From Eledone cirrhosa (Eukaryota): a stretch of 64,000 nt of DNA. The stretch is from assembly GCA_964016885.1 (NCBI GenBank), contig OZ024742.1, positions 237,646,001 through 237,710,000 of the forward strand, in the 5' to 3' direction. The notes beneath the pieces were generated by a model. It made no database searches. It saw only the letters and a program-made list of their open reading frames with translations, and was not told where the DNA came from. This document shows positions 30,333-61,090 of the stretch, in pieces. Every line of letters begins with the position of its first letter. Position 1 is the first letter of the stretch. The translations under genes were made by a program, and so were the position numbers.

Positions 30333-30733
30333 TGTAGGAGGTGAGTTTTATTGTAGTACAATAAAGCAATGCAGATATCGGATAAGAAGCACTCTACAGT
30401 TTGTGGGACTGGAGTATGCATAATATAAGATCAAAAGATGGTTAAAGGAGTTCAATATATTTTATTATGCGCATTTCAAAAACAAACATCATCAAACAAT
30501 AACATTTGTGTTTTCATCAGATAAAACAGGAGAACATGATATGAAGGCTAAAAAAACACTTGTTGATAGTGCATGTTGATTTAAAACTGCACTATCAACA
30601 AGTGTTTTTTTAGCCTTCATATCATGTTCTCCTGTTTTATCTGATGAAAACACAAATGTTATTGTTTGATGATGTTTGTTTTTGAAATGCGCATAATAAA
30701 ATATATTGAACTCCTTTAACCATCTTTTGATCT

Positions 30734-37618: not shown

Positions 37619-37782
37619 GTGTGTGTTTGTTTGTTATAAGAACAGATTAAAGTTTAAGCAAAGAATCGCTGCTTTCAACATTAACGGGATCTTCTGAAAC
37701 TAACGAATTTAATCTGTGAAGTAAATATTTCGAGAAACGTTGCAACTGAAGGAAAACATGAAGACGATATTTTGGTTCGTGA

Positions 37783-39344: not shown

Positions 39345-41160
39345 ATTTAGTCTGGTCTATACCATTTTCTCAGAATGAATTTCGATTCGTGTGGACAACG
39401 ACCGATGCTGTCAAAGCAGTGTTTCTCTGTAGCCAGTTGTGAGAGTATATTCCACTTTTCCGCGTTAAATAGCTGGCAAAATTTCGTCCCATTAACATAG
39501 GGGTAGATTTTTCTAATATTAGTTATTGGAAGATGTGCCGTTATTTTTAAGGGTCCATACATGGTTTGCGAGCTGGATGACATATTTTTTTGTCAGTATG
39601 TCTGAAAACTGTTTCATGGTTCAGATACTGGCTTTTGAATCGGCTCTCGGACATTCCGACATTAGTTCAAGCTTCTGTTTGGTGGTTCTGGTTGGTGGAG
39701 GTCACTTCTGTCTGATATATATTACTATTGGAATGTTGCACTGTCAGCATTTTCTTTTAGATGTAGGGCGGTGATCTGGAGAGTAAGCGACTCTTTCAGA
39801 GAAGCCGCTGTTGCTTCGTGCTGGGTTGTAAAAGAAGGCTTTGCTAGAAGAATGGTTGGATACCCTCTTACTAATGTTATTGATAGGATTTTTTAGAACT
39901 CTAGGGGGTGGCTAGAGTCCTTATGAATGTACCTAAGCTTCTCACTGGTTTTGTGGAATGGTCTGTGTGTGCGTGTCCGTAGATCTCGATTAACGTCTAG
40001 GAAGTTAACACTGGTTAGGTTGGTGGATATAGTAAATTTTAAGCCTAGACTTAAAAAATTGTGATCAGGTTTTTTCTAAATGTGTCGAGTTGATGGCCTC
40101 TTTTCTGGCTCGATGGAGTCAGACCATCATCACGATACAGGTTCGTATGGAATTCAGGGAATATATTACATAGTGTGTCTAAGATAAAAAAAAGCCCACC
40201 AAATCGCATATATCGGCGCTGTCAAATGATCCCATCGGCACATCGAATGGATCGTTGTTAGTGGATTTCTTTATCCATGGTTACTATTATTAAAGAGTAT
40301 TTTTTTTTTTCTGCAGTGGGATATGGCTAATCGGTCAAACTTGTCTATATTAGTGAAATTGCTAGCGAAATCAGGGGCCTTATCAAGTAAGTTCCTCAAT
40401 ATCGAGGGGTTAAAATGAATGATATCAAATTGAGTGAACCTAGCTTCTAAGTGTGTTTGAGGACATTAAACCAATCTATGACTACTTGACTATTATTCCA
40501 CTGATTAAGAGTGGACTGTTGTCTAATGACTATATTAATTTTTCTAAGTATGTCTTTACTATCAATTCCTAACTCAGTTTTAGCAGGGCTTATGAGCCAG
40601 CAAGATGGTTTATTGACAAAGTCATCCTTAACGTCATTAAATGTAATATAGGCCCCTCTCCTAGCCAAGCACTTGTTATCTACTTTGAGGGTGGCCGCTA
40701 TATGCTTCGCCAAAATTATTGATGGCTTTGTAGCAGGGTCAGCTTTTTATATTCAGACTGTATGGTTTAGTCCAGAAGTTGGTTGTAGGTAGAATGATCT
40801 AGTTCATAAAGATTGTTAGTTTTATCAGATAGGACGAAAGTTCTATCAGCGAATCTGAAGTTTTCTATGTTTCTACTTATTTCATTCTAAAAAGAATTGG
40901 AGTGTTTGCGAAGAGATATGTTAGCAGCGAGATTAAGAATTATCAGCCTCAAAGCTAGAAAGTTCCTTTATCTTAGGTGGGTAGTTTCTAGACATCAGGT
41001 TGAATATATTGGCTGAATTTGATAGTTTACCGTCAAAGGCCAGTATCCTCTATCTCAATCACTTCATGGGGTGGAGTTTAGAGTACATCCTGCCTGAAGG
41101 GGTCTGTATATTCTTCAGAGAGTAGTCAATTAACTCGTTCTATGGACTAAGTGCTCTTAC
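39345..41160 (-). mobile_element. Degenerate Penelope-like element (Naiad-like) RT and GIY-YIG relic
   Basis: AYITFNDVKDDFVNKPSCWLISPAKTELG, WNNSQVVIDWF and LYRDDGL parallel the 49944-51963 element. Confidence 0.8.
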
Positions 41161-47856: not shown

Positions 47857-48655
47857 TTAATTCCTTTAAATCTTCATCAACACTCCTTCACTCCCAGACT
47901 CATTAATACCACACCCCACACCCCAGACGCATCCAAATATCTTTTATATATAGAGTCACACATCACAACACAACATGATCTCAGTTTGACTATCACCACC
48001 GATGAATGCGAGAAAGTTCTCCAAGAAAGTTAACCAGGAATCTTTAAAATTCTTCCCACCGAAGTTAACAAAGAACTTACTAGATCTACCAACTCATCTA
48101 TATATCTAAAACAGAGAATGTCTGTCTGCTGTCTGCCTGACTCCCTAAAACTCGAGAACCACCAAACCGATTTTTTTCAAACTTTACACATGTAATACTT
48201 ATGGTCGTCTGAGTGGTTTGAGCAAAACATATTTCAAATTTTGAATGCCCTAGGGACTGCATTAGGCGCCGGTAACGATCTCACTCTGTCTTTCTTAGTC
48301 TGTCTTTTTAGATAGATATAACGCTGCGCCCTTATAATATCTGTCTGTATGTCTAGCTGTCTGCATTACGACATTATGACACTATCTGTGTGTGGGTGTA
48401 TATATGTATATAGTGTGTATATATATATAGTGTGTGTAACGTTTTTCAAAATATTTACTTCTGCGTTCACAGATTGATTTTTTTAGTTTCAGAAGATCCC
48501 GTTAAGGGTAAAAGCAGCGATTCTTCGCTTAAACTTTAATCTGTTATTTTAATATATATAATTATATATATATATATATATATATAAAGGACGTAAAATA
48601 AGAAAATATTTTTTTTTTTAAATTAAAAAAAAATTTTTTACTTACTTAAATTTTT

Positions 48656-48737
48656 ACTCCAACTAATTAGTTTCTGCAATGGGATAAAGACAGTTACGTA
48701 ATCCAACTGTCGAGAATTCATTGCGTCATCAGGGAGT
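48656..48737 (-). ncRNA. Minimal type-I hammerhead ribozyme motif with extended stem II
   Basis: Minus strand ACTCC-CTGATGA-C-GCAATG..GACAGTT..AACTGTC..CATTGC-A-GAAA-CTAATTAG-TT-GGAGT: perfect 5-bp stem I, palindromic stem III, GUU triplet. Confidence 0.82.
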
Positions 48738-49004
48738 CTATTCTCAGTTAAGTCTCCAGGCAATGCGCGGACACTGGCGGCTCATATAAAAATAATAATA
48801 ATTCGGTAGATCGAACAGCTTGCGAGGACTGGATTCTATGTACCGAAATTCTCACTGCTTCAAGTCAAATGGCCGATTCTAAAGAATCAATCACGTGACA
48901 CAGAGGCTAGTTAGAAGGAATGGGATGGTAAGATGACTGACGCCTACTAACACCCCAAAAAAAATTTTTTTAGAAGTGGTTTTGGCAAGTTTGCTCGACA
49001 AATC

Positions 49005-49074
<70 letters not shown>

Positions 49075-49248: not shown

Positions 49249-49720
49249 AATATTCATTAGTTAAGCAAGACAAGACCACAAATTTCACAAGGAAGACATT
49301 ATTAAAAGATTGCCAACATATTTTAGTTTGATGTAAGGAATGTAGAGAATAATATTAATAATAATATTAATAATAATATTAATAATAATAATAATAATTG
49401 TTTCTACTTTAGGCACAAGGCCAGCAATAACCCAGTGCATTACTGGTACTTTATTTTATCGACCCCGTAAGGATGAAAGGCAAAGTCAACTCGGCGGGAT
49501 TTGAACTCAGATCGTAAAGGGACGTAACTATGCTGGAAAGCATGGCGTCCGACCCTCTACCGATACTGCCAATCCACAATAATAATAATGTCCGTTATTA
49601 TTATTAATATTAATATTATTATTATTCTCTACATTCTTTACATCAAACTAAAATATGTTGACAATCTTTTAATAATGTCTTCCTTATGAAATCTGTGGTC
49701 TTGTTTTGCTTAACTAATGA

Positions 49721-49724
<4 letters not shown>
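49249..49724. repeat. About 125-bp inverted duplication with a minus-strand SINE family 1 copy (49395-49577) in the (AAT)n loop
   Basis: ATATTCATTAGTTAAGCAAG...GTAGAGAATAAT versus ATTATTCTCTAC...GCTTAACTAATGAATAT. Confidence 0.85.
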
Positions 49725-49799
<75 letters not shown>

Positions 49800-49807
<8 letters not shown>

Positions 49808-52800
49808 TATATTCGTGTACAGATATTTTTGCATACACAATAACAAAATATAAACAAACGTATTTATTTCACGAGGCTCGACAGCAGCAAAGACAACAAC
49901 AAAAAAGAGAGGGAACGCAATTACATGCTATTGAAAAATCTTAATGGAAAATTATTTGCCTATTCACCCAAGGCGACTTCACTTTTTATTCGATAATCCG
50001 CGAAAAGCAGACAACAAACAGGATAAATTTGGGTTTAAAACCTATAATAACCCTCCGTGTAACCCAGCATTGCTACCCTTCGAAAATGATGTCTTGGAAC
50101 TCGTACGGAGTATCAAATTTCGGAATAGGAGCATTTCCTTCCAGCAGGACCTGAAGAATAGAATTCGTTCTATTAAGGATTCTAATGCCGTGCACGTCCA
50201 TTCCGACAAAACTGGCAACCTATATCAAGTGGAGCGCAGTACTTACCATCAACTACTACATAATGCTGTAACTAAGGATTACCGTAAAACTAATCGGTGC
50301 GTCATCAATGAAATCAACGATGCTGGGTTTAAAATCACCTCTGATCTCAACATCCTGGACCGGACCGAACCTCTGGACCCTATTTCTCCCCACTTTACCG
50401 TGAAGGATCACAAATCCAATTTTCCGAACAACCCCTCTATTCGGCTTATTAACCCTACGAAGTCCGATTTAAGTAGACTTAGTAAAAGGATTCTTGATAG
50501 AATTATACCTGAAATTAGAAGTTTGGCCCCTCTTGCACTGTGGAACAATTCTTTCGCGGTGATTGATTGGTTCAACGGCATATGCAACAAGGAACATTGC
50601 CGTTTTATTCAATTCGACATCAATAATTACTACTCCTCCATCACTTTACCACTTCTCCTTAGAGCTATCAATTTCGCTAAAACACTCACAGTGGTTAAGG
50701 ATTTCGAAGTTGATGTCATCCTCAATGCCCGTAAGTCGGTGATTAATTTCGACGACTCTATTTGGATAAAAAATCCAATAGTACCCTATTCGACATGAGT
50801 ATGGGCGCCAGCGAATCTGCGGAGGTTACTGATCTTATCGGCCTTTTCCTTCTTTTCTCTATCAAGGACCAATTCCCCTACGCGGGCGGTGGTTTGTACC
50901 ATGATGATGGTCTTTTTACTATGACTAAGTGCGGCCCTCGTGCTTGCGACAGGTTCAGAAAAGAACTCACAGCCTTCTTTAAAGACTTCAACCTCTCTAT
51001 ACAGGTTGATGCCAACCTCTCGGTCGTTAATTACCTCGACGTTACCCTAAATTTATCGAACGGCTTGTATTACCCGTATAGAAAGCCGAATGATACGCTT
51101 AATTACATAAGTAAGAATTCCAACCATCCCGCCAGCATAACCAAGAACCTGGTAAGAAACGTTTCGTTGAGGCTTTCCCGTCTATCTACTAACGAGCATA
51201 TTTTCAACGACCATTCCACTTATTACAATGAAGCTCTTGCTCGGAGTGGATTTGTCGATAAGGTAGCATATACAGAGTACGAGAATAGACCTAGAAGAAA
51301 TAGATCCCGTCGCATTATATGGTATAACCCACCATATAATATGGAGGTGGCCACACCATTAGCTAAGATCTTTCTATCCCTTATTACGAAGCATTTTCCC
51401 CTACACATAAATATAGTAACATTTTTAATAGAAATACTATTAAAATTTCTTACTCTACGACTCCTAACCTTGCACATAACATCACAGCTTCAAATTTAGC
51501 TAAACTACCTAGCCGTAGGAACACCTGCAACCCTGTAGTTAGTACTAACTGTAATTGTAGGAATCGGGTTGATTGCCCCCTATCCGGGAAATGCCTCTCT
51601 AGTAACATTGTCTACAAATGTAAGGTTTAAACACTCACGTCCCGCAAGGCCTACACAGGGTTAACCGCCAATAGATTCAAGCAGCGTCTTTACATGCATA
51701 CCCATTCTTTTCGTTACCCTCTAAGAAGGAATATGACGTCACTTTCAGCTTATATCTGGAGTCTAAAAGACAACCACACCCAATATAAGTTACACTGGGA
51801 GATCCTAGCTAGGGCTAGATCGTATAACGGAAATAAAAGACCATGTGACCTCTACGCCACAGACCACATCTTAAACAAAAAATCTGAGGCAATTTCGACT
51901 TGTAAACATAAATTGCACAAAACTTTCCTGTATTACAGCCCCACATTATACCCTAACGGATAGTACGATCTATACGTGGATATTTTACGTCTTGATGTGG
52001 TAGCTAAGTATATGTTATGTTTATACCATTACTTATTTGCATAGGTGAGTATATATAACTTGTATGTTTTGTGAAGGTACGTATACTTTCTCGTACGTAT
52101 ATTTGATTGTATATGTTATGGCGCATATTTTTATATATTCTGGTACATATGCTTTTGGTTATGTGTATGCGTCTGTGTGAGTATGCGGGTTCGTACGTAT
52201 GGTGGGTGTGTGTATATGTGTACTTCATGTTTTGGTTGACGTAGTCTCCGAACATTTGTGTATTTACATGTAGGTATGTGTGTGTGCGCTTGTTATATAC
52301 GTATTTATTTATTTATATACGTTTATTTAATTATTTATTTATTTGTATACACACACACACACATATTTATATGTGCGTGGTTTGTATACCTATGGCGAGT
52401 GTTTTCGCGTATGCTTGTGTATGTACGTATTTGGACGCGTGTATCTATTTATTTCATTTCAATTACCTCTGTATTGTATTTTATTTACTTAATTCTTAAC
52501 TCTGAAGCGGAGAATCATTCGGTTTCCTAGTTAGAATTTTAGTCTACGACTTCAGCTATACCATTTACGTGGTTTTGTCTTTGCGTGCAATTGTTCTCCA
52601 CGCACCACATATGACGTATTATCTTCGTTTTTTTCGTTCATTGCCAGAGAACGTCTCTATGAACCACCTAAGAGAACAATAGTCTACGACTTCTTTTATA
52701 CCATAAACGTGGTCCTGTCTTTGCGTGTAATTGTTTTTCACCGCTCCTATTAATGACGTATTATATTCGTATTATATTCGTTTTTTCCCGTTCTTTGCCA

Positions 52801-52961
52801 GGGAACGTTTCCACGAACCAAAGTATCGTCTTCCTGTCTTCCTCCGGTTGCAACGTTTTTTTTTAATATCCACTTCTGCGTTTACAGATTGACTTTGTTA
52901 GTTTCAGAAGATCCCGTTAAGGGTGAAAGCAGCGATTCTTTGCTTAAACTTTAATCTGTTA

Positions 52962-52968
<7 letters not shown>
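49800..52968 (+). mobile_element. Penelope-like retroelement (Naiad-like), near full length, frameshifted, flanked by (TA)n on both sides
   Basis: ORFs 49944-50798, 50762-51499 and 51694-51963: FGFKT, SDKTGNLY, KDHK..F...PSIRLINP, FIQFDI..YY.SI, MGA, LYHDDGL, NYLDVTL, CNCR..DCPLSGKC linker, IVYKC...AYTG GIY-YIG. Confidence 0.92.
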
Positions 52969-53034
<66 letters not shown>

Positions 53035-53130
53035 CTGTTTATATGCCAACACAAGAGCAAGAATGAAGGGTTCATTCTACTGACATGGCTTTTAAAATGA
53101 GGCGTGTTTGCATAATTGCAAACGAATCGG

Positions 53131-53317
53131 AGTGGATTGGCAGTATCGGTAGAGGGTCGGACACCATGCTTTGAGGCATAGAATTATGGCCCTTGCCTTT
53201 CTGAGTTCAAATCCCGCCGTGGTTAACTTTGCCTTTCATCCTTACGGGGTCGATAAAAAAGTACCAGTAATGCACTGGTTAATTGCTGGCCTTGTGCCAA
53301 AAGTAGACACAATTATT
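53131..53317 (+). mobile_element. SINE family 1 inside a composite repeat (53032-53350)
   Basis: Full head-core-tail; both flanks shared with 20368-20540. Confidence 0.87.
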
Positions 53318-53343
53318 AATATTAGAAAAACTCAGATTACATT

Positions 53344-53433
<90 letters not shown>

Positions 53434-53467
53434 ATAAATGTAATCTGAGTTTTTCGAATATTAATAA

Positions 53468-55427: not shown

Positions 55428-55864
55428 CACGTGCATTTATATATATATATATATATATAAACATATATACATATATATGATGACTGCCCTCTCGTTATCG
55501 AGTATGGCCATTGCACGTTATAACATTATTAATAATTATCAGTTAATGCTATCGTGTAATGTCTGTGCGTGAAGATATTTTAAAATTGAGTAAAGACTGT
55601 GCACTGAGCCAATCCCACTCTCTGAGCGACAGTAGCTATAACCCGAAAAGAAGAAAATATCAACATCATCAGTAACTACTGAGCCGCAGGTCTTATGTCG
55701 GAGTTATCCCAGTTACCTGAATTGCCTTCTCCTAGAAGAATGCCCTGACAAAGGCTAGGGACCCTTCACTCCCAGTGGTTTAACCACACGATCCAGTATC
55801 CAGCCCGAATATTTCTATGTCCCCGCGCATATACATACACATGCATACGTTTATATACATATAT

Positions 55865-55905
<41 letters not shown>

Positions 55906-56130
55906 CACATGCATAAATGTATATACATATTCACACATTTTTGGATGGCCGTTGACTCTTATGAGTTCTTCCGCCTTTTGTCAGGTTTTGTTTTTTGTCC
56001 TGCAGGGTATCCAAAATCAACCTTCTCACCAAGTATACTTGGTGGGATTGCTGGTTTAGTCGCCGACGGCTCGACGATGCGACAGGTTGTACTGGGTTAC
56101 ATGTTACCAGTAGCACTCAAGAGTGACCCG

Positions 56131-59892
<3,762 letters not shown>

Positions 59893-59902
59893 ATATATAT
59901 AT

Positions 59903-61090
59903 GAGCAGGTGGAATGGAAAGTAAAAAAGCGATTAGTTTAGTAAACTGGAGGGTAGGTGATAGATATGTGGCCAGTGAAGCAAAGAAGTGAGGTAGGGAC
60001 TCCGCTGCTGGTCGAAGCGTCTAAAAATAGATAATTGAAGAGTAATAAATTTTCCTACAAGGCTGACCCTTAAGAAAAAGTCAAAATGGGGAATCTAGTA
60101 ATATGTAGTCTGGCGCCGATAAGGTCCTGGCAGTTGGAGGTAGGGTAGGAGCTATAAGTAGAGTGGAAAGAGAGAAGTAGGATCGAACCTCATGCTAGTC
60201 ATAGAGGAAACTAGTGCTTCAATTAAGCAGTTAAAGGGGCTTAGAGGAAATATATTATAGGGTTAGGTTATCTAGATAAGAGAAGAGGTCTTATACTAAT
60301 CAGGGTGGTACTTAGCGAAGGTACGTAAAGCCTTGTGTTGGCAATTAAACATTCTATCATGGCGAGAGTTTAACAGATCCGAGCCAGTCATAATCTCCAT
60401 TACCTCCATCACACAAAGGTCGCAAGAGCACCTTTCACTTTGGTATGGGCGTGCGAACCTTAACACTGACCAGGAGAGTGTATACTCCGTATCCCAGATA
60501 TTTTTGGCGAGGGTGGTTCATTTACTCAGCCCAGAATTCTTGAATGAATGTGCGTGCACATACCAACTCTTCATAAAAAGTTAAAAGTTGCACCCACATA
60601 CTTATATACCTCCGAATTACTTTTGACCACACACTGGTAAATCATGTTCCTACACATGCACTTTTAATTTAAGGGGAAGTTATTGGGTTGTCTACAGTTA
60701 CAGTGTGCCCGTGCATAATGTCTGGGGTCATTGCTTATACCTGTATTTGGGGTGATATCTGAACTATGGTGAGGTTGTATTAGGTTTGAATGCACATTAG
60801 GTTCATCCGAGAGGGTTAGACATATCCCTGTTCAATGTAGAGGGTTGGCAAACCGTTCACGTGGTTGTTCTGATAGTAGAAGTAGAGATTAGGTTTTGGT
60901 TAGGTTGTATGTTTCTATCAAAATCCTGGGGGTGTTTACTGTTCAATCCAGTTATAAAACTGTTACGGTTAACTGTGGTAGAGTAGGACAGCCAAACCGT
61001 TTTTCTATTCAGGATTTGATGATACCTGTGTGCTGGAGGAAAGCCTTTGTCTAGTATTCTAAAGAAATGTGTGACTAATTCAGTTACCAC
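59903..61090 (-). mobile_element. 3' fragment of another Naiad-like PLE (linker, GIY-YIG relic and 3' UTR)
   Basis: FFRILDKGFPPAHRYHQILNRKTVWLSYS, CNCRQ, YVG, MHTHSFKN...TTLAKNIW; 5' break at (GAA)n 61093-61190. Confidence 0.78.

What the first reader, a model, noticed from the sequence alone, without database searches (positions are those of the whole stretch)
48455..49005. Two different PLE-type termini tail-to-tail in one (TA)n, one with a textbook hammerhead motif
48455-48551 (+) is a solo copy of the 3' end of the Naiad-like element (52870-52968). Across (TA)n at 48552-48586 lies a roughly 420-bp ORF-less minus-strand element with the intact motif 48656-48737 (stem I ACTCC/GGAGT, two-helix stem II, palindromic CTAATTAG, GUU), bounded by (TA)n again at 49006. 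It is the best standalone mini-element candidate.
Basis: partly seen in the sequence, partly recalled or inferred. Interest (0 to 1): 0.7.

Follow-up and report, generated by a model that had tools for sequence, protein, structure and literature searches.

The report
Truncated hammerhead retrozyme, Penelope-style insertion
This is a cut-short copy of an abundant 557-base non-coding repeat carrying a hammerhead (self-cutting RNA) motif, likely pasted into TA repeats by Penelope-type transposon enzymes from a predicted circular RNA; its tail-to-tail neighbour is most likely an older insertion in the same TA target.

Summary
The motif is real, but the 420-bp piece is not a standalone mini-element. 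It is bases 1-420 of a 557-bp unit found in head-to-tail arrays genome-wide. The lineage has at least 8,432 hammerhead cores, with compensatory changes in stems I and II. A C·A mismatch at the base of stem II is conserved, so it is not fully textbook. Copies end in (TA)n at two fixed sites 118 nt apart (A, B). All 68 back-to-back insertions with both ends classed have one A and one B end, the Penelope 'tail' footprint. Units and arms of one insertion share a haplotype, consistent with a monomeric, likely circular, template. The neighbour is a Hydra-clade, not Naiad, element. Tail-to-tail pairing with it recurs at 9 of 226 ends versus 15 of 941 background, best read as shared targeting. Cleavage and circles are untested; no RNA holder was listed. 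Verdict: a new non-LTR retrozyme. The scan reported the same footprint for other families on other DNA.

The parts
48435..48551 (+). Solo 3' terminus (end A) of a Hydra-clade Penelope-like element; hammerhead-like motif with GAAA->AAAA at 48510
   Evidence: 90% to 52849-52970; clade; motif
48552..48586 (.). (TA)n shared by the two termini; likely the solo's tail into which the retrozyme inserted
   Evidence: relative age
48587..49006 (-). Bases 1-420 of the 557-bp retrozyme unit, 5'-truncated, ending at family end A (48587)
   Evidence: 97-99% to 39 other scored places; 2 differences from L005:1501-1920
48656..48737 (-). Type I hammerhead motif, two-helix stem II with conserved C·A at its base, palindromic stem III; predicted cut 48661/48660
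48907..48922 (-). Segment predicted to pair with the stem III/I 3' strand and block the ribozyme in the folded circular monomer
49007..49069 (.). (TA)n at the 5' truncation junction
49813..52968 (+). 5'-truncated, frameshifted copy of the Hydra-clade PLE (RT, then GIY-YIG-like domain, 3' UTR, hammerhead-like motif 52905-52945); a neighbour, not part of the retrozyme insertion

Best explanation
48587-49006 is a 5'-truncated copy of a 557-bp protein-free hammerhead repeat (an animal non-LTR retrozyme) whose arrays are likely transcribed, predicted to self-cut into monomers that likely circularise, and likely copied into (TA)n by a Penelope-type endonuclease/reverse transcriptase priming at two fixed internal sites. 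Shown: tandem unit, covarying hammerhead, two fixed 3' ends, one A and one B end on back-to-back arms, one haplotype per insertion, arms running through the cut site up to 7 times. Inferred: both target strands are nicked, one cDNA starts at A and one at B on the same RNA (or identical RNAs), and rolling round a circle gives multi-unit arms; here only an A arm survived, stopping after 420 nt. Predicted, untested: cleavage (probably as a dimer through the palindromic stem III), ligation, and blocking of the ribozyme in the circle. The facing Hydra terminus is likely an older insertion whose (TA)n tail served as target; which PLE family supplies the enzyme is not determined.
For: Arrays with 557-bp period. 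3,387 + 5,045 exact cores from two disjoint patterns, reversed controls 0. Covariation: 94.6% of 448 cells paired, 54 with changes on both sides versus 16.9 shuffled (0/500), slid controls 35-49%. 261 exact A-(TA)n and 558 exact B-(TA)n junctions. 68 of 68 two-arm insertions with both ends classed are A-B; in 10 of 68 neither arm contains the other, so both were primed from RNA. Two adjacent RT start sites define the PLE tail (PMC11167929), present on one of the inverted pLTRs (PMC3846280); the Hydra family here shows the same geometry. Within-insertion divergence 0.39% versus 4.0% between; 52 of 4,557 diagnostic cells mixed versus 1,656 expected, across 50 haplotypes; opposite arms 1,353 concordant, 7 discordant, 334 expected. 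Cut-site junction unchanged in 350 of 357 units. Circular fold z = -3.8 against 30 shuffles.
Against: No RNA data, so cleavage and circles are unshown. C·A at the base of stem II, a 3-bp stem III (P about 0.1) and a GUU triplet predict weak monomer activity. Only 1 of 9 Xenopus retrozyme dimers cleaved in vitro (bioRxiv 10.64898/2026.07.22.740005). In the anole PLE the hammerhead was dispensable and uncut RNA was the main template. 5' ends do not pile up at the cut site: 5 of 247 arms at 347-348, 2 of 128 long arms in 340-350. Homogeneous source arrays read as linear RNA would also give one haplotype per insertion. L085 and L206 mix haplotypes. The shuffle control ignores relatedness, and the count of further pair types was not above shuffles (349/500). 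No homology to an autonomous PLE terminus was found in the loci held.
Confidence: 0.72

Rival explanations
1. Same PLE-driven insertion, but the template is an uncut linear multimer transcribed from homogeneous arrays; the hammerhead cuts rarely or serves another step, and no circle is needed.
For: No peak of 5' ends at the cut site and a seamless junction. Uncut RNA is the main template for the anole PLE in vitro. 10 of 68 arm pairs share a 5' end within 10 nt, about 2.6 expected, as for a linear template.
Against: New variants are fixed in every unit of arrays across 50 haplotypes and subfamilies 70-84% identical to the young unit, which points to a repeated one-unit bottleneck. Linear copying alone cannot lengthen arrays, yet arms reach 3.7 kb. 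Core and stems are conserved with covariation.
Confidence: 0.17
2. The element is the terminal repeat (pLTR) of an autonomous PLE, seen here as a truncated 3' end, as the 'PLE-type terminus' wording suggests.
For: PLE pLTRs carry type I hammerheads (PMC4209133) and give the same insertion geometry.
Against: Upstream of the unit lies another unit or unrelated flank. Among 61 single-arm insertions only 4 pairs share junction-proximal flank. A profile of the unit found only older subfamilies and weak hits in other repeats, not a PLE UTR.
Confidence: 0.04
3. The tail-to-tail pair is one event or a specific partnership: this Hydra family is the driver and co-inserts with the retrozyme.
For: 9 of 226 retrozyme ends face this family's end versus 15 of 941 background tract sides, Fisher p = 0.034. 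The family has intact 713-codon frames, the same two-end geometry and a weak resemblance just after end A. In L013 its end is joined to the retrozyme without TA.
Against: The solo is about 10% diverged from its family copy while the retrozyme copy differs at 2 of 420. A co-insertion would join 5' ends, not 3' ends across a TA tract. Many other repeat families face the ends. Many other diverged Hydra-like fragments, mostly 28-50% identical, lie in the loci held. The background includes old tracts that are poorer targets.
Confidence: 0.05
4. A satellite spread at the DNA level (unequal crossover, DNA rolling circle), the motif being a relic.
For: Tandem arrays; Li et al. propose local expansion by crossover.
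Against: Dispersed short arrays with fixed 3' ends, variable 5' ends, the strict A-B rule and RNA-structure covariation.
Confidence: 0.02

Closest known systems
Animal non-LTR retrozymes (Cervera and de la Pena 2020, PMC7229834, parts 2-4 of 6 read; Li, Clavereau and Pollet 2026, bioRxiv 10.64898/2026.07.22.740005, parts 1-3 of 5 read)
   Same: Non-coding tandem unit with one type I hammerhead per unit, low GC, self-paired fold, thousands of motifs, co-existence with PLEs; a mismatch at the base of stem II is also reported for axolotl HHR_Amex2.
   Different: Unit 521-557 nt (170-400 nt in the 2020 paper; within the 51-972 of the 2026 one). Long two-helix stem II with conserved C·A. Ribozyme predicted to be blocked by self-pairing in the circle in 7 of 9 distinct units, which the 2020 paper says is unusual for metazoans. 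The parts read give no two-start-site footprint. No parent pLTR found here.
Insertions of endonuclease-bearing Penelope-like elements with inverted pLTR and one-sided tail (PMC3846280, passages; PMC11167929, parts 1-2 of 4; PMC8557442, sections 6, 11 and passages)
   Same: 5' truncation, inverted 5' arm, two RT start sites with the tail on one arm, (TA)n preference.
   Different: No ORF; tail 118 nt rather than 30-40; arms of up to about 6.6 units.
Hydra-clade PLEs (PMC8557442 section 11), for the neighbour
   Same: C-terminal GIY-YIG-like domain, RWR at the RWK position, DKT, CxCX5C linker, (TA)n target, single ORF of about 710 aa.
   Different: Hammerhead-like core reads CAGAAGA in 100 of 100 listed of 17,003 matches instead of a canonical core; tail about 90 nt.

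Membership tests
Animal non-LTR retrozyme | Head-to-tail tandem units, each with a type I hammerhead | tested here: met
   (family level; the window copy itself is a sub-monomer)
Animal non-LTR retrozyme | No coding capacity | tested here: met
   longest ATG frame 27 codons in the multimer, both strands
Animal non-LTR retrozyme | Conserved hammerhead core and stems | tested here: met
   pair 10.1-11.1 is C·A; no Rfam hit
Animal non-LTR retrozyme | Self-cleavage in vitro | not testable with these tools
   bench test needed; 5 of 247 5' ends at the cut site is a weak hint only
Animal non-LTR retrozyme | Expression as circular monomer | tested here: inconclusive
   no RNA data obtained; indirect support from haplotype homogeneity and fold
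PLE-mobilised element | Two fixed 3' ends, tail on one of two inverted arms | tested here: met
   68 of 68 A-B
PLE-mobilised element | Homology to the pLTR of an autonomous PLE | tested here: inconclusive
   none significant with the one family compared or in loci held; other families' pLTRs not collected
Naiad (neighbour) | N-terminal GIY-YIG and DKA motif | tested here: not met
   endonuclease is C-terminal, motif is DKT
Hydra clade (neighbour) | RWK-like, DKT, CxCX5C linker, C-terminal EN, (TA)n target | tested here: met
   (by motifs; no tree built)
Hydra clade (neighbour) | Canonical hammerhead in the pLTR | tested here: not met
   core has A at position 4 in 100 of 100 listed copies; only the 3' 650 nt were examined closely

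The most novel reading that the evidence does not exclude
A long-lived retrozyme lineage replicates as a viroid-like circle with a covarying internal lock on its ribozyme, and a single circle is copied at once by two PLE reverse transcriptases starting at two fixed sites, one per target strand. The 68/68 end rule and arm-to-arm haplotype identity would be a genomic read-out of the unsolved second-strand step of Penelope transposition and direct evidence for retrozyme rolling-circle reverse transcription.
Probability: 0.4. Interest if true: 0.7.

Novelty: new member of a known kind. Interest (0 to 1): 0.45.

Why it matters
That PLEs mobilise animal retrozymes through circular RNA has been a proposal resting on co-occurrence and pLTR similarity (PMC7229834; bioRxiv 10.64898/2026.07.22.740005). 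This family supplies a mechanistic footprint and defined reagents: a 557-nt RNA, two mapped start sites, a (TA)n target, and intact candidate PLE ORFs in the same genome, which fit an existing in vitro assay (PMC11167929). The window locus itself is an ordinary dead copy.

Tried and rejected
Rfam scan: only microsatellite-driven hits in the window's best 150 rows and no hammerhead in the region. Pfam did not recognise the Hydra ORF pieces. Sequencing runs: no RNA holder listed; contigs of 4 runs of unknown kind show the 2057->1501 joint in 2 runs, which only repeats the DNA tandem; shallow partial holders in organisms B-D were not interpreted. Classical twin priming (one arm stopping at the other's start site): 3 of 68, about 6 by chance, rejected. 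Fold-back as the general origin of the second arm: excluded in 10 of 68 where neither arm contains the other, not excluded in the other 58. L013 as a template-switch chimera: better read as the retrozyme joined to a small A-B Hydra insertion. Three colinear short motifs shared between the retrozyme tail and the Hydra 3' UTR: not significant. The unconstrained fold of the Hydra terminus does not give the hammerhead shape. Literature: five searches listed no paper on this family or on a two-end rule in retrozymes; supplements were not read and the bioRxiv supplements are closed, so a listing there cannot be excluded.

Full report
Observation. The sequence is as described in outline. On the minus strand 48737-48656 reads as a type I hammerhead: stem I ACUCC/GGAGU, CUGAUGA, stem II of two helices, GAAA, a palindromic stem III and GUU, with the cut predicted between 48661 and 48660. 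Locally stems I and II have pairing probabilities of 0.95 or more and stem III about 0.1, while two copies of the palindrome form a -9 kcal/mol duplex, the pattern described for dimer-acting animal hammerheads (PMC4209133, passages). The first pair of stem II is C·A and Rfam does not detect the motif. The + strand piece begins near 48435.

The element. A genome search gave 1,990 candidates; the 40 scored were 97-100% identical over all 420 bases and many lay 557 bp apart. The loci show head-to-tail arrays of a 557-bp unit of which the window holds bases 1-420, with 2 differences from the reference unit. The unit is non-coding. Two disjoint patterns count 3,387 and 5,045 hammerhead cores, controls 0. 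Older subfamilies have units of 521-542 bp, 70-84% identical. In 22 aligned hammerheads core, stem III and the C·A pair are invariant, while stems I and II covary: 94.6% of 448 cells paired, 54 cells changed on both sides against 16.9 in shuffles, one pair in four forms. The shuffles ignore relatedness, the outer helix is imperfectly aligned (86%), and further pair types were not above shuffles. The circular unit folds at z = -3.8 against 30 shuffles. In 7 of 9 distinct units stem I has P <= 0.05 in the circle because its 3' strand pairs with a segment about 250 nt away; in the subfamily with an extra base in stem I that segment has a matching extra base (L221, L250; 4 of 10 units were recovered by the pattern used). 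L227 (P 0.81) and L241 (0.17) do not follow.

Ends. Copies run into (TA)n at unit position 420 (A; 261 exact junctions) or 538 (B; 558). From 170 loci chosen by similarity or by these patterns, 163 insertions remained after removing duplicates: 72 single-arm and 91 with two back-to-back arms. Of the 91, 68 had both ends at A or B and all 68 were A-B; 15 had an end outside the fetched DNA and 8 had one end elsewhere. Most loci were selected on one end, so the test is the opposite end. 5' ends are scattered, arms are 30-3,677 bp and cross the cut site up to 7 times. One arm does not stop at the other's start (3 of 68), and in 10 of 68 neither arm contains the other. This is the PLE signature: a tail on one of two inverted pLTRs (PMC3846280, passages) that corresponds to two internal RT start sites in vitro (PMC11167929, parts 1-2 of 4).

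Template. Units within an insertion differ by 0.39%, between insertions by 4.0%. At diagnostic sites 52 of 4,557 cells are mixed against 1,656 expected, over 50 haplotypes in 116 multi-unit insertions. Opposite arms agree at 1,353 of 1,360 site comparisons in 42 insertions, and at 22 of 22 for a site that segregates in the youngest clade. The cut-site junction is unchanged in 350 of 357 units. Repeated fixation of new variants in all units is most simply a one-unit bottleneck, that is a circle (inference). Against: homogeneous source arrays would mimic it; 10 of 68 pairs share a 5' end; L085 and L206 are mixed; only 5 of 247 arms start at the cut site, though in L093 both do; 8 of 9 frog retrozymes did not cleave in vitro; the anole PLE uses uncut RNA.

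The neighbour. 49813-52968 encodes RT followed by a GIY-YIG-like domain with DKT and CxCX5C; full-length copies have open 713-codon frames. These are the Hydra-clade marks, whereas Naiads have an N-terminal endonuclease and DKA (PMC8557442 sections 6 and 11). The family has its own A and B ends about 90 nt apart, at least 17,003 termini, and a hammerhead-like motif with A at core position 4 in all 100 listed. Its ends face retrozyme ends at 9 of 226 versus 15 of 941 background tract sides (p = 0.034), but many other families do so too and many other Hydra-like families exist. The solo is the older partner, so nested insertion into its TA tail is the simplest account. The driver is not identified.

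Comparison and verdict. The family meets the sequence criteria of animal non-LTR retrozymes (PMC7229834 parts 2-4 of 6; bioRxiv 10.64898/2026.07.22.740005 parts 1-3 of 5); cleavage and circularity are untested. Five searches listed no paper on this family or on the two-end rule in retrozymes (listings and abstracts only for papers not named above; PMC6431247 passages added nothing). The host looks like a cephalopod, which is my recalled impression from a short repeat and comes from no call. Earlier notes of this scan describe the same footprint in other families here and in other genomes, seen after my own analysis; none covers this sequence or place. New member of a known kind, interest 0.45.

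Noticed in passing
window 52905-52945 (+) and genome-wide: The very abundant Hydra-clade family (at least 17,003 termini, intact ORFs) carries a hammerhead-like motif with a fixed A at core position 4 (CAGAAGA); activity unknown.
   Followed up: partly
L072:1560-2100: Another tandem repeat of about 515 bp with its own type I hammerhead (long stem II, palindromic stem III), lying across the (TA)n from a retrozyme end; a weak profile hit (E 0.15) to this unit's tail.
   Followed up: no
L093:1342(-), L112:1049(+), L203:3090(+), L029:550(+), L056:552(+): Several further hammerhead-bearing, TA-adjacent repeat families with short stem II.
   Followed up: no
window 53873, 54372, 21285, 21770, 63737 (+), 20753 (-): Repeated terminus beginning with a CUGAUGA half-core, near a broken PLE-like RT/GIY-YIG element at about 55759-59330 with a long asparagine-rich stretch.
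   Followed up: no
window 49340-49730 and 53040-53450: A SINE-like repeat occurs in opposite orientations on the two sides of the Hydra copy, with short inverted flanking segments.
   Followed up: no
window 37634-37744 (-), 39780-40940 (-), 60293-61090 (-): A third, older terminus of the same Hydra family and decayed fragments of other Hydra-like families.
   Followed up: no
L085, L206: Single insertions whose units belong to different haplotypes, suggesting template switching or recombination between subfamilies.
   Followed up: partly
window 30466-30695: Inverted pair of a sequence with a hammerhead-like core and AT-rich stems.
   Followed up: no
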